Positions 27,212 through 31,400 of a DNA stretch of 64,000 nt are shown in pieces (position 1 is the stretch's first letter; every line of letters begins with the position of its first letter). The position numbers and the translations under genes are program-made. The notes under the pieces were generated by a model. It saw only the letters and a program-made list of their open reading frames with translations, did not search any database and was not told the DNA's origin. The stretch is from Escherichia coli 042. Its GTDB lineage: Bacteria > Pseudomonadota > Gammaproteobacteria > Enterobacterales > Enterobacteriaceae. The stretch lies in assembly GCF_000027125.1 (NCBI RefSeq), contig NC_017626.1; one strand, written 5' to 3'.

Positions 27212-28476
27212 TTACTTAATACCGTATTCTCGGCTTAACCGGCCGTGCAACCTCAACACATTGGTTTCAACTGCCGTCACCACGTTCTCCGGAAAATCTG
27301 TCGGTAATGAAGTCTTCACGTTATCCAGTGCTGCCGGAATCATTCTGGCAAAGTCACTCAGGATTTCATGCATCTGCACTTCCGGAAATTTCAGCAACTT
27401 TGCTGTCGCCAGAAAATGTCGCGGATAAATTTTATCGATTGCCGTTTTTTTGCCTTTGGATGCGTTAAGCCCCATTGCCAGTTTGAGATCGCTGATGTGT
27501 ATTCCTGCGCCACCCAATACCGGAAATGCTGAAATGATGTCGTAAAATGGCGTGAGTCGATAACTGCCGCCAGCCTGAATAAATACGGAGAAGTTTTTTG
27601 CATGGCCATCCGTTGCGCCAATCAACCACTGGAACACCTGAAACTTCATAAAATCATAGCGATCTTTCAGCGCCTCGCTGGACCCCATCAAAAAAGCCAT
27701 GATCCGCGCGATGCCTGGGCCTCCATCTGATTCATATTTCACCGATGAAGTTAAACCGAATGTCTGACACATATCCTCCTGTGGCAAGCGAAGTAAAACC
27801 GTTCGCTCAGCATTCCAACGCCTGTCAAAACGTTCGACCGCTAACGCGCGCACATTCCCCGCTTTAATGATTTCTGCGTCCGGCACATTCAACCCAAGTT
27901 CTTTCGCCAGCAGCAGACAGTAATACTCATTATCAACGCTTTGGCTGAGATCGAGCGTCGCATTGGGCTGCCTGATTTCGCCAATCGGTAATTTAATGAT
28001 GTGCGTCGTCGGCGTTATTCCTTTCGGAATGCACCAGTCATTGCCTATTCTGAGCAGCGCTGTCTTCTCCTGCGCGCCAGCAACCGAGATGCGAAAGTCA
28101 TTTTCTTCTCTAATCATGCCCAGAGGGATATCTGCTTTATAAGCCGTTAATACTTCTTCAAGTCTGGCTTCAGTAAGCTTTTCCCATGCCATTATCGGAT
28201 GCGTTACGGTTTCGTCTTCGGGTATTAACGTCACGGCACCAACGCTGTCTCGCCCTATTTCTGACAATAAATCAAACGGTTGTCTGGATTTGGCATGATA
28301 ACGTTTAACGATCCGGTCACGTACAATCGGGCTATCGGGTAACAGATTATCGAAGAAGTTAAATACGGCATCAGAGGTGATATTCCCCCTCTGCAATGGC
28401 AGCGAAAGTGACAACGGTCTGGCATAACGGCTGGCTAACCACTCCGGTGCATACTTAAAGGTGTGCGCGCCGTTGG
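27212..28476 (-). pseudogene. hipA: 5'-truncated hipA (Ser/Thr kinase toxin), no promoter and no hipB
   Basis: The frame matches HipA from …LANGAHTFKYAPEWLASRYARPLSLSLPLQRG… to the C-terminus (…LHGRLSREYGIK). Four codons upstream of the first homologous residue is an in-frame TGA, and the first in-frame ATG is about 95 codons in; the track ORF starts at a TTG (28414). Confidence 0.8.
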
Positions 28477-31400
28477 CTAGCGAGAATCATAGTCGTCAGC
28501 AGAACGGTTATCGGAACTGACGCTGTTATCAAACCAGTTATACAGCGCCCAGCTGTCAACATAAGCGCCGGTCTTATTCGCATCGTTCTGATACCAGGTC
28601 GCGTACAGTCCTGCGCTGTAACCGCTGATGCGCCCATCCGATTTATAACCCACACGATTACTCTGAGTATTACTGTGCTGATTGGCGTAGCCTGCCATCA
28701 CGCCAAGATGCCAGCGATCCTGCGCGTTGCTACTCCACTGCGCCAAATCGCCTCCTAGCTGCAATACATAGCGGTTAGCCTGAGTATTTAGCTGGCCGTC
28801 ACCGGTCCTGAAACGTTCGTGCCCCCCGACATGACGCATCCACATACTGCTTGCCGAACCCTGAGAATGCAGTGAATCTGTATACTGCGGCTCACCCAGA
28901 CGGTCGTGTAAGCGATGGCTAAACAGCGAGTTGGCTGCGGCAATGTTGCTGATATAGCTTCCGGCCTCCGGGCGATAAACTGATGGGCCTTCCGGATCCA
29001 CAACAGGGGGATTATTGATGGGATCGGGTGTATCCGGTGGCGTTACGCCTTCCCATTTACTGGTCAGATACCAGTTTTTCTCGTCATTCCCCTTCCCTTT
29101 AGCCAGCGTGTAGACGTAAGCCCCAGCTTCGACAGTTCCGGTGGTCAGCGCGAAGTTACCTGCAGAATTACCGCCAACCTCAATGAGTTCAATACCGTTG
29201 ACCGTTTGTGCACCGACGCCGCCAATGTTATCAACCCGAACGCGAGTGTTCCCTTGGGTATCGCCTTTCACGTTCATCTTATCGGTGGGCGAATTATCGC
29301 CGCCCAGCGTCGCGTTGAACGTCATCAGGCCATTGTTTCCGTTATAGTTACCGTTAACGGTCAGTACATTCCCCGGTTTCCCCCCTTCGCTGTTCATTTG
29401 AACCGTGCCACCATTCTCCAGGTTACCGCCGACAGTGGTTTTAGCGACACGCAGTGTCCCCCCTGGCATAACGTTCACATCACCTGCAGTGGTGACATTT
29501 CCCGACATCACACCGCTGTTATGGATATTAATGTGCTGACTTGCCATATTAATGGCAGAGTCGGAACCGAAAGCAATTTCACCACCCACGATATCCGTCG
29601 TACCCTGATACGCCGCGGAATCGTTGTTAAGAGTCAGGATCCCGGTACCCAGTTTTGTCACATCACCGCTACCGCTGATACTGTGCGTCATCGCCCAGCT
29701 ACGCTCAGTGGAGATGGTGAGCAGGCCATTATTGATAACGGAAGCATCACCCAGGTTTTTCTGCTCGTTGACGCTGAGCGCGCTGCCTGTATCAATGTTG
29801 AATTGCCCCACAAAGCGGCTATTATCGCCATCCAGCTCTACATCTGTCCTGGCGGTTGCGCTCACGATACCCTTCCCGCTTATGCTATTACGCAGTTCTC
29901 CAGTCACGTTTTTTAGCGTTAACAGACCGTCATTGGCAATATTTCCTCTGCCTAACCCCTGCGTATTATCGAGGCTGACTTCCGCATTTGGGCTAATGCT
30001 GGTTAACGCATTGTAGCGTGCATTAAGCCCCTCGATAGCCAGTGTTCCCCCTGTAACATTCAGGTTTCCGCCACCTGTCAGTTCACCCTGACTGATCCCA
30101 CCTTTATTTACCGTGAGCGCCCCCTCTTTGAACAAAACAGTCGAACCCATCTGCCCGGTGAATGTCTCTACCGTCTGCGTCGATCCATTAAGATCGACGA
30201 TGGCCGCGTTGCTGATGTTCAGTTCCCGGGTGTTGCCAAGTGCACCATCCGCATCGGTACGTAATGTCCCCATCTGAACGTAGGTTGCCCCCTGATAGTC
30301 GTTCTGACCGTTGGAAAGCGAAACCTGTCGTACCGTATTGATTGCCAGATCCCCTTCACCACCGATTTTTGCCGACATATCGGCTGTTGCGCCATAGGCT
30401 CCGCCATGTTCGGCTAACGTCAGCTTTTGCCCACCATGGATGTTCAGCGCTTTCAGCCCATAGTTAACGTACAAACCATCACCTGGTGCGGTCGTGAGGC
30501 GGAATCCATAATCACCCTCGGCGACCACTGTTCCGTTTTGTGCAATGTGTAACTTTTTGTCCGCTTCCACCGCGTCGCCCTGTAAATCACGTAACGTTAA
30601 TGAGCCACCCGATCCAATAACCGTTTGCGCCTTCACCAGTTGAACGCCGACATGGCTATCATCGTGTTCCAGCAAATTGAGCGTCGTCAGAGGGTTATTC
30701 GCCATGGGATCATTCCACGGTTTAGGCACGTCGATAAGCACGTCGCCCATCCCGTTTACCTGATAGTTACGGCCTTTCCAGGTGTAGTCACCCGTGCCGA
30801 CAACCAGCGTATCGACGCTGATATATCCCTCCGCAAGCGTCGCAGCAGGTATATCCGTATCGAAAGTGAGCGTACCGCCATTCATGGCTAGTCCACCAAT
30901 GGATTGCTCTCCCACTTTTACCGATGTGGTATTTTCACTGTCAGACTGAAGCATCGCGTGAGTAAGCGCAGCGGTGTTGTCGCGTTCCAGTGTGAAGGTA
31001 CTGTCTTTCAGTTGGGCAACACCGGCGAATTCAGTTCCTGTTGCATGGGTAAAGCCAAACATTTTGTCGGAGGATGACAGCTGCACTCGCATCAAGCCAT
31101 CGCCTTTGAGCGCATTGGTCAGCGTGTAATCTCCTGCACTGTTCGTTGATGCGAGAATGTCGAGCGTACCGGGGCTTGCAATGGTTACTTCACTCGAACC
31201 CATGCCTGTTACCCCATCTGCCGTATGTGACGCAATAGTCAGGAGGCCGTCATTGACCAGCGTTTTACCACTATAAGTATTCCCTGCATTGAACACCGTA
31301 TGGCCTGCATCATGCATCACTTTTCCGTCTTTATCGTCACCCGTAATCAGCATATCGACCTGGTAGCCGGCATCACTGTTATTAGTATGATTAAAGACAA

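What the first reader, a model, noticed from the sequence alone, without database searches (positions are those of the whole stretch)
27212..28480. hipB and the 5' end of hipA are missing; the hipA remnant abuts a truncated autotransporter
In K-12, hipB sits immediately upstream of hipA with a four-operator promoter, and the autotransporter beta-barrel lies beyond that. Here the autotransporter frame ends …DDYDSR-TAG at 28477..28479 and the HipA-homologous frame begins two nucleotides later at about HipA residue 21 (…LANGAHTFKYAPEW…). There is no hipB, no promoter, an in-frame TGA four codons upstream, and no ATG for about 95 codons. The same event removes roughly the last 150 to 200 residues of the autotransporter beta-barrel. 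It looks like a single deletion of about 1 kb that silences both genes; a HipA toxin without HipB would only be tolerated if it is not expressed or not active.
Basis: partly seen in the sequence, partly recalled or inferred. Interest (0 to 1): 0.5.

Follow-up and report, generated by a model that had tools for sequence, protein, structure and literature searches.

The report
Clone-specific deletion killing hipBA and autotransporter
A single blunt deletion of about 1 kb, found in one rare E. coli clone, removed the hipB antitoxin gene, its promoter, the start of the hipA toxin gene and the end of a neighbouring autotransporter gene, which is an ordinary case of toxin-antitoxin decay.

Summary
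On the minus strand an ECSE_1600-family autotransporter frame ends …DDYDSR-TAG at 28479..28477. hipA-homologous DNA runs from 28479 down to its stop at 27212.

Against K-12 the junction (28479|28480) is a clean deletion of 1026 bp, or 1014 bp against the closest intact relative, GF43. It removes:
- hipA nucleotides 1-55
- all of hipB
- the hipBA promoter region
- the last 160 codons of the autotransporter

There is no microhomology and no IS scar. The remnant encodes HipA residues 19-440, 98.6% identical to K-12, with catalytic residues intact. It has no native start, no hipB and no promoter-like site upstream.

The intact arrangement is ancestral: hipB is in 4811 of 5426 complete E. coli genomes, and none has this junction. 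The junction is real. It lies in contigs from other samples that are 100% identical over 10-13 kb, and the called 394-aa product is recorded on 69 contigs.

The autotransporter also carries a separate CAG→TAG nonsense mutation at codon 322. O157:H7 and strain KH_005 carry separate deletions that also remove hipB together with the hipA start.

Verdict: ordinary lineage-specific pseudogenisation, of low interest.

The parts
27212..28479 (-). hipA remnant. It encodes HipA residues 19-440 plus the stop codon (27212..27214). The native ATG, codons 1-18 and the first base of codon 19 are missing.
   Evidence: tblastn with K-12 HipA covers residues 19-440 at 98.6% identity. NCBIfam couple_hipA matches profile positions 20-100 of 101. 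Precomputed Pfam hits are PF13657 and PF07804. S150, K181, D309, N314 and D332 are retained, and P262T is private among the 14 sequences compared.
28479..28480 (.). Deletion junction (…GGCTA|GCGAG… on the + strand). It is blunt, with 0 bp of microhomology and no inserted bases. It replaces 1026 bp of K-12 sequence, or 1014 bp of GF43 sequence.
   Evidence: BLAST and base-by-base comparison with K-12 (L001) and GF43 (L008).
28477..32427 (-). Larger fragment of the ECSE_1600-family autotransporter pseudogene. It covers family profile positions 331-1646 of 1806 and lacks the last 160 residues of the beta-barrel. Its stop codon TAG (28479..28477) is supplied by hipA sequence.
   Evidence: NF011422 scores 3020 bits over profile 331-1646/1806. 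The TIGR01414 barrel domain is matched only over 2-281 of 432. ORF listing.
32452..32454 (-). Premature TAG at autotransporter codon 322. It is a CAG→TAG change and is independent of the deletion.
   Evidence: Translation reads …EYSFVGV*DGSHG… in frame. GF43 and GF60 have CAG at this codon.
32452..33417 (-). N-terminal fragment of the same autotransporter (321 aa). It includes the extended signal-peptide region.
   Evidence: NF011422 matches profile 1-321/1806. Pfam PF13018 ESPR is recorded for the identical gene in L005.

Best explanation
A single deletion of about 1.0 kb with blunt ends, most likely from illegitimate end-joining or a replication error, occurred in the ancestor of one E. coli clone. 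It removed the hipBA promoter region, all of hipB, the first 18 codons of hipA and the last 160 codons of the adjacent ECSE_1600-family autotransporter.

The antitoxin, the promoter and the toxin's translation start were lost together. The HipA kinase was therefore switched off at the moment HipB was lost, and the cell survived. What remains is a promoterless, start-less hipA pseudogene whose 422-codon frame is still open because the event is recent. The autotransporter cannot fold its barrel and is also interrupted by a nonsense codon.

Shown here:
- the breakpoints
- what is missing
- that the intact state is ancestral
- that the allele is clonal

Inferred:
- the mechanism of deletion
- the lack of expression
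- the viability logic, which rests on established knowledge that hipA is toxic without hipB
For: - There is one junction, no microhomology and no IS remnant.
- The remnant is HipA 19-440, and no hipB is present in the window.
- No sigma-70-like site lies on the minus strand between 29200 and the remnant. In-frame starts are limited to two TTG codons in the first 34 codons after the upstream stop. The 20 nt upstream of each candidate start were printed, and I saw no obvious ribosome-binding motif in them by eye.
- The intact state is ancestral. The intact hipA-hipB-autotransporter segment is in 3739 of 5426 genomes, and hipB is in 4811.
- The junction is absent from all 5426 complete genomes, from JGI metagenomes and from GTDB species representatives.
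- The junction is real and clonal. Protein P0001 is on 69 contigs, and L005-L007 are 100% identical to the window across the junction over 10-13 kb.
- Independent deletions in O157:H7 (617 bp) and KH_005 (about 795 bp) also remove hipB, the promoter region and the hipA 5' end together.
- Decay of chromosomal TA systems in E. coli by deletion or nonsense mutation is described in the literature (PMC7167474).
Against: - Nothing contradicts the deletion itself.
- Non-expression of the remnant is not demonstrated. The natural 3' end of the autotransporter gene was deleted, so a transcript from its promoter could read into hipA.
- The remnant keeps an open frame and all catalytic residues.
- A two-step history, such as an inactivating change first and the deletion later, cannot be excluded. 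The private P262T substitution could be such a change.
- hipB elsewhere in the genome could not be checked beyond the 64-kb window.
Confidence: 0.9

Rival explanations
1. The hipA remnant is still expressed by read-through from the autotransporter promoter, with initiation at TTG 28414 or 28396 or ATG 28192. It would act as an N-terminally truncated kinase independent of HipB. This would resemble HipT, which lacks N-subdomain 1.
For: - The open 422-codon frame keeps S150, K181, D309, N314 and D332.
- The natural 3' end of the upstream gene is deleted.
- HipT-type kinases work without a covalently attached N-subdomain 1 (PMC10627512).
Against: - No promoter-like site was found upstream.
- The 20 nt printed upstream of each candidate start show no obvious ribosome-binding motif by eye.
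- The upstream ORF is interrupted at codon 322. By inference this favours Rho-dependent polarity over about 4 kb of untranslated RNA.
- An active HipA without HipB is expected to arrest growth (established knowledge). In HipBST the N-subdomain equivalent, HipS, is the inhibitor, so a truncated active kinase would be more dangerous, not less.
- Clone members are identical in sequence, so the open frame is explained by the youth of the event.
Confidence: 0.04
2. The junction is an assembly or sequencing artefact, such as a collapsed or chimeric contig.
For: None, beyond the fact that no complete RefSeq E. coli genome has the junction.
Against: The same junction lies in contigs from different samples and assemblers (Logan SRR15370207 and SRR29155159, ENA ERZ27279525). 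These are 100% identical to the window across it. The 394-aa product is recorded on 69 contigs, including NCBI assemblies. There are no repeats at the breakpoints.
Confidence: 0.01
3. This junction is the ancestral arrangement, and hipB, the hipA 5' end and the barrel end were gained in other lineages.
For: None.
Against: - hipB is in 4811 of 5426 genomes across the species.
- The HipA and autotransporter family profiles are both cut mid-domain at the junction.
- hipA has no start codon of its own.
- The junction is confined to one clone.
Confidence: 0.005
4. The present junction results from two or more successive events. One possibility is a toxin-inactivating mutation or IS insertion first, followed by a deletion that erased the evidence.
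For: - A private P262T substitution is present in the remnant.
- The locus is deletion-prone in this clone. L006 lacks window 32473..37859 and L007 lacks 31314..33796.
- GF60 shows an IS-associated rearrangement at the same locus.
Against: There is a single blunt junction with no foreign bases. No intermediate allele was found in 5426 genomes. A single event is the more parsimonious reading.
Confidence: 0.05

Closest known systems
E. coli K-12 hipBA type II toxin-antitoxin locus (HipA Ser/Thr kinase toxin, HipB HTH antitoxin and autorepressor)
   Same: The locus is in the same chromosomal position, between the ydeQRST-type fimbrial genes and AraC-like remnant on one side and the ECSE_1600/yneO autotransporter and lsr operon on the other. 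The remnant is 98.6% identical to HipA residues 19-440, with catalytic residues conserved.
   Different: hipB, the promoter region and hipA codons 1-18 are absent, so it is not a functional TA module.
hipA remnant of E. coli O157:H7, annotated by PGAP as 'HipA family toxin, incomplete, missing N-terminus'
   Same: The outcome is the same: hipB, the promoter region and the hipA 5' end were removed together, leaving a start-less hipA next to the autotransporter.
   Different: It is an independent event with different breakpoints. It spans 617 bp (K-12 L001 4266..4882), removes 257 nt of hipA and leaves the autotransporter 3' end intact.
Decay of chromosomal toxin-antitoxin systems in E. coli (for example ccdO157, Mine et al. 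2009, as reviewed in PMC7167474)
   Same: A chromosomal TA module at a conserved position has been lost in some lineages by deletion or nonsense mutation.
   Different: This is a different TA family. Here the toxin's coding sequence is still nearly complete, and the antitoxin was lost along with the toxin's start.
HipBST tripartite system (HipT kinase lacking N-subdomain 1, HipS antitoxin)
   Same: An internal start in the remnant would give a HipA-like kinase lacking part of N-subdomain 1, which superficially resembles HipT.
   Different: There is no hipS or hipB partner and no promoter. The remnant is a truncated orthologue of K-12 HipA, not a HipT orthologue.

Membership tests
HipA (type II TA Ser/Thr kinase toxin) | HipA N-terminal (Couple_hipA) and HipA_C kinase domains | tested here: met
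   TIGR03071 gives E = 4e-24, but only over profile positions 20-100 of 101. PF13657 and PF07804 are recorded for the identical product. Identity to K-12 HipA 19-440 is 98.6%.
HipA (type II TA Ser/Thr kinase toxin) | Catalytic and autophosphorylation residues (S150, K181, D309, N314, D332) | tested here: met
   All five are conserved.
HipA (type II TA Ser/Thr kinase toxin) | Complete ORF with its own start codon and N-terminus | tested here: not met
   Codons 1-18 are deleted. A TGA lies three codons upstream of L19, and the first ATG is 96 codons downstream of L19.
hipBA toxin-antitoxin module | Cognate hipB antitoxin gene immediately upstream, overlapping the hipA start | tested here: not met
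   No HipB match in the 64-kb window (best hit E = 5.4 over 10 aa). The K-12 hipB coordinates fall inside the deleted segment.
hipBA toxin-antitoxin module | Autoregulated promoter with HipB operators upstream of hipB | tested here: not met
   The whole 222-nt intergenic region is deleted. No promoter-like site lies upstream of the remnant.
ECSE_1600 family autotransporter (type Va secretion) | Family-specific sequence match | tested here: met
   NF011422 scores 3020 bits (cut-off 2335) for the 1316-aa fragment and 701 bits for the 321-aa fragment.
ECSE_1600 family autotransporter (type Va secretion) | Complete C-terminal beta-barrel translocator domain | tested here: not met
   The family profile is matched only to position 1646 of 1806. 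TIGR01414 is matched only over 2-281 of 432. 483 nt are deleted.
ECSE_1600 family autotransporter (type Va secretion) | Uninterrupted reading frame | tested here: not met
   An in-frame TAG sits at codon 322, where relatives have CAG.
HipBST-type split kinase system | Separate hipS (N-subdomain 1) and hipB genes upstream of a short HipT kinase | tested here: not met
   The upstream neighbour is the truncated autotransporter. There is no HipS- or HipB-like ORF.

The most novel reading that the evidence does not exclude
The start-less hipA remnant may not be silent. Read-through transcription from the autotransporter gene, whose natural 3' end was deleted, together with internal initiation, could yield low levels of an N-terminally truncated HipA kinase with no HipB control. 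This could alter persistence or growth heterogeneity in the clone.

A weaker but likelier reading concerns the three independent alleles seen here (this clone, O157:H7, KH_005). Each removes hipB, the promoter region and the hipA start in one step. Together they form a natural record of the only viable route for losing an addictive module.
Probability: 0.04. Interest if true: 0.5.

Novelty: already known. Interest (0 to 1): 0.12.

Why it matters
This matters little beyond strain bookkeeping.
- The clone lacks a functional HipBA module, which is relevant if anyone studies persistence in it.
- It also lacks a functional ECSE_1600 autotransporter.
- The blunt junction is a specific marker for the clone. 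It is absent from 5426 complete E. coli genomes.
- Its modest general value is as one of at least three independent alleles in which hipB, the promoter region and the hipA start were lost together. This fits the expectation that an antitoxin can be lost only if the toxin is disabled at the same moment.

Tried and rejected
- Exact-junction scans of JGI metagenome contigs and GTDB species-representative genomes both returned nothing. They add only that the allele is rare.
- Four of the six candidate-start products looked up by exact sequence were not in the collection. The TTG-28396 product (394 aa) gave the useful loci. The ATG-28192 product was also on record, but on a single 1116-bp ENA contig.
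- Searches for microhomology or repeats at the breakpoints found only chance 6-mers, against both K-12 and GF43.
- No selection test on the remnant was possible. The carriers compared here are 100% identical over 10-13 kb. Differences from K-12 and GF43 (22 synonymous/6 nonsynonymous and 8/4) mostly predate the deletion.
- GF60 is not the source strain. It is 100% identical to the window over 34000-54000, but at this locus it has hipB, a C-terminally truncated hipA and a 10-kb insertion carrying IS100.
- Literature searches for a description of natural hipA 5' truncations, including O157:H7, found only general statements on TA decay.
- Structure prediction and fold search were not run. Sequence identity to K-12 HipA is 98.6%, so they would add nothing.

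Full report
**Observation**

On the minus strand a long autotransporter ORF (28477..32427) ends …DDYDSR followed by TAG. In another frame, translation reads *FS-LANGAHTFKYAPEWL… and stays open to a stop at 27212.

tblastn with K-12 HipA aligns residues 19-440 to window 28480..27215 at 98.6% identity.
- HipA homology begins at residue 19, at the second base of codon 19. The C of the CTA codon belongs to the autotransporter side.
- The in-frame TGA is three codons upstream of L19.
- The first in-frame ATG is at 28192, 96 codons after L19. TTG codons occur at 28414 and 28396.
- The TAG that now ends the autotransporter frame (28479..28477) is made of hipA codons 19-20.

**Breakpoints**

A K-12 genome (L001) carries three adjacent features:
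- hipA at 3200-4522
- hipB at 4522-4788
- the ECSE_1600-family autotransporter from 5011

The autotransporter is itself annotated as frameshifted in K-12.

BLAST places window 28479 opposite L001 4467 and window 28480 opposite L001 5494. The window therefore lacks L001 4468..5493, which is 1026 bp. The missing segment comprises:
- hipA nt 1-55
- all 267 nt of hipB
- the 222-nt intergenic region. From established knowledge this holds the hipBA promoter and HipB operators. This was not tested here.
- the last 483 nt of the autotransporter, which is 160 codons plus the stop

Base-by-base comparison shows a blunt junction, GGCTA|GCGAG, with no shared bases and no inserted DNA. The closest intact relative at this locus is strain GF43 (98.7%). 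It gives the same breakpoints, a 1014-bp gap, and only chance 6-mers near the ends.

**What the pieces are**

NCBIfam matches the hipA remnant to the HipA N-terminal domain only over profile positions 20-100 of 101. The two autotransporter fragments match ECSE_1600 family profile positions 1-321 and 331-1646 of 1806. The generic barrel model TIGR01414 is cut at 281 of 432.

The remnant keeps S150, K181, D309, N314, D332, and also G22 and D291. It differs from K-12 HipA at six positions. Five are common polymorphisms. P262T was not seen in the 13 other HipA sequences compared.

Neither HipB nor the deleted K-12 DNA has a meaningful match anywhere in the 64-kb window. The consensus scan finds no sigma-70-like site on the minus strand upstream of the remnant.

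**A second lesion**

The autotransporter is split by an in-frame TAG at 32454..32452, which is codon 322. GF43 and GF60 have CAG there. The gene therefore carries a nonsense mutation independent of the 3' deletion. The order of the two events is unknown.

**Ancestral versus derived**

- Across 5426 complete RefSeq E. coli genomes, 3739 hold at least 80% of a 901-bp K-12 probe. The probe spans the hipA 5' end, hipB, the intergenic region and the autotransporter 3' end.
- hipB alone is present in 4811 genomes.
- A 161-bp probe centred on the window's junction is contiguous in none of them. The single genome covering it, KH_005, does so in two pieces 392 bp apart.
- Exact-match scans for a 28-mer across the junction found nothing in JGI metagenome contigs or in GTDB species representatives.

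The K-12-like arrangement is therefore ancestral and widespread, and this junction is derived and rare.

**Real, and clonal**

Of six candidate products looked up by exact sequence, the 394-aa one starting at TTG 28396 (P0001) is recorded on 69 contigs from NCBI, Logan and ENA.

Twenty-four carrying contigs were read. They fell into three gene-neighbourhood groups, and one locus of each was returned. All three are 100% identical to the window across the junction, over 13,185, 11,261 and 10,102 bp. This rules out an assembly artefact. It also shows a young clone with no diversity at this locus.

Two clone members carry further deletions in the same neighbourhood:
- L006 lacks window 32473..37859. 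This spans the autotransporter 5' end, lsrK and lsrR, and reaches into lsrA.
- L007 lacks window 31314..33796. This is the autotransporter 5' part and its upstream region.

The surrounding window is an ordinary E. coli chromosome. Its best match is 99.3% over 1-21000 and 100% to strain GF60 over 34000-54000. GF60 has a different structure at the hipBA locus.

**Independent parallels**

- O157:H7 (L003) lacks K-12 L001 4266..4882, which is 617 bp. This removes 257 nt of hipA, all of hipB and 94 nt of the intergenic region. PGAP annotates what is left as a HipA-family toxin missing its N-terminus.
- KH_005 (L004) lacks about 795 bp, with a 16-nt overlap at the junction. This removes about 15 nt of hipA, hipB, the intergenic region and the autotransporter 3' end.
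- In all three lineages hipB was lost together with the promoter region and the hipA start.
- GF60 shows the other expected route, with hipB kept and hipA truncated at its C-terminus.

**Mechanism**

*Shown:* one blunt deletion with the stated content, the ancestral state, and clonality.

*Inferred:* HipA arrests growth when not neutralised by HipB (established knowledge of the hipBA system). A viable hipB loss must therefore disable hipA at the same time. A deletion that takes the promoter, hipB and the hipA start together does exactly that.

The remnant's open frame is explained by the youth of the clone, so it is not evidence of function. Any transcription into it would have to come from the autotransporter promoter. 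The nonsense codon at position 322 leaves about 4 kb untranslated, which should favour premature termination. This last step is inference and was not tested.

**Comparison with the known**

This is TA-module decay by deletion. The phenomenon is described for chromosomal TA systems in E. coli (PMC7167474).

As a family member, the remnant is an orthologue of K-12 hipA by sequence. It fails the tests for an intact ORF, a cognate hipB and a promoter, so it should be filed as a hipA pseudogene.

The HipT/HipS analogy (PMC10627512) is only a formal resemblance, and the membership features are not met.

**Verdict**

The feature is an ordinary, lineage-specific pseudogenising deletion.

- Interest: 0.12.
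- Most novel reading not excluded: a HipB-free, N-terminally truncated HipA expressed by read-through. I put this at about 4%.

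Noticed in passing
window 32452..32454 (minus strand): CAG→TAG nonsense mutation at codon 322 of the ECSE_1600-family autotransporter. It splits the gene into 321-aa and 1316-aa ORFs. It is independent of the 3' deletion, and relatives GF43 and GF60 have CAG.
   Followed up: yes
L006 (ENA ERZ27279525) and L007 (Logan SRR29155159), relative to window 32473..37859 and 31314..33796: Members of the same clone, 100% identical elsewhere, carry additional deletions. 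One of 5387 bp spans the autotransporter 5' end, lsrK and lsrR, and reaches into lsrA. The other, of 2483 bp, removes the autotransporter 5' part. This suggests ongoing erosion of the region, though assembly error in these contigs was not excluded.
   Followed up: partly
L003 (O157:H7 NZ_CP089036.1) and L004 (KH_005 NZ_CM174518.1): Independent deletions at the same locus: 617 bp in O157:H7, and about 795 bp with a 16-nt overlap in KH_005. Each removes hipB, the promoter region and the hipA start together. hipB is absent from 615 of 5426 complete E. coli genomes.
   Followed up: partly
L002 (GF60 NZ_CP172185.1) 1680..12725: GF60 is 100% identical to the window over 34000-54000. At this locus it keeps hipB and has a 394-aa, C-terminally truncated hipA. 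It also carries an insertion of about 10 kb of oxidoreductase-type genes with an IS100 copy, and an IS1 upstream of the autotransporter.
   Followed up: no
window 21915..26290 (minus strand): The fimbrial cluster next to hipA is intact here. It has an 883-aa usher, a 239-aa chaperone and a FimA-like major subunit. In K-12 the usher (ydeT) is a truncated pseudogene and no chaperone or major-subunit gene is annotated between it and the regulator remnant.
   Followed up: no
window 26676..26930 (minus strand): An 84-aa AraC-type HTH fragment lies between the fimbrial genes and hipA. The equivalent is annotated as an incomplete pseudogene in K-12, GF43, GF60 and O157:H7, so it is an old, shared remnant.
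   Followed up: no
window 27695..27697 (minus strand, HipA codon 262): P262T substitution in the hipA remnant. It was not seen in K-12, GF43 or 11 other full-length HipA variants. It could be a post-deletion neutral change or a prior change affecting activity.
   Followed up: partly
window 1..21000 versus 34000..54000: The two flanks have different nearest relatives among complete genomes. The left flank is 99.3% to strains such as THO-008, MINF_7C and Ecol_316. The right flank is 100% to GF60. This points to a recombination mosaic around the locus.
   Followed up: no
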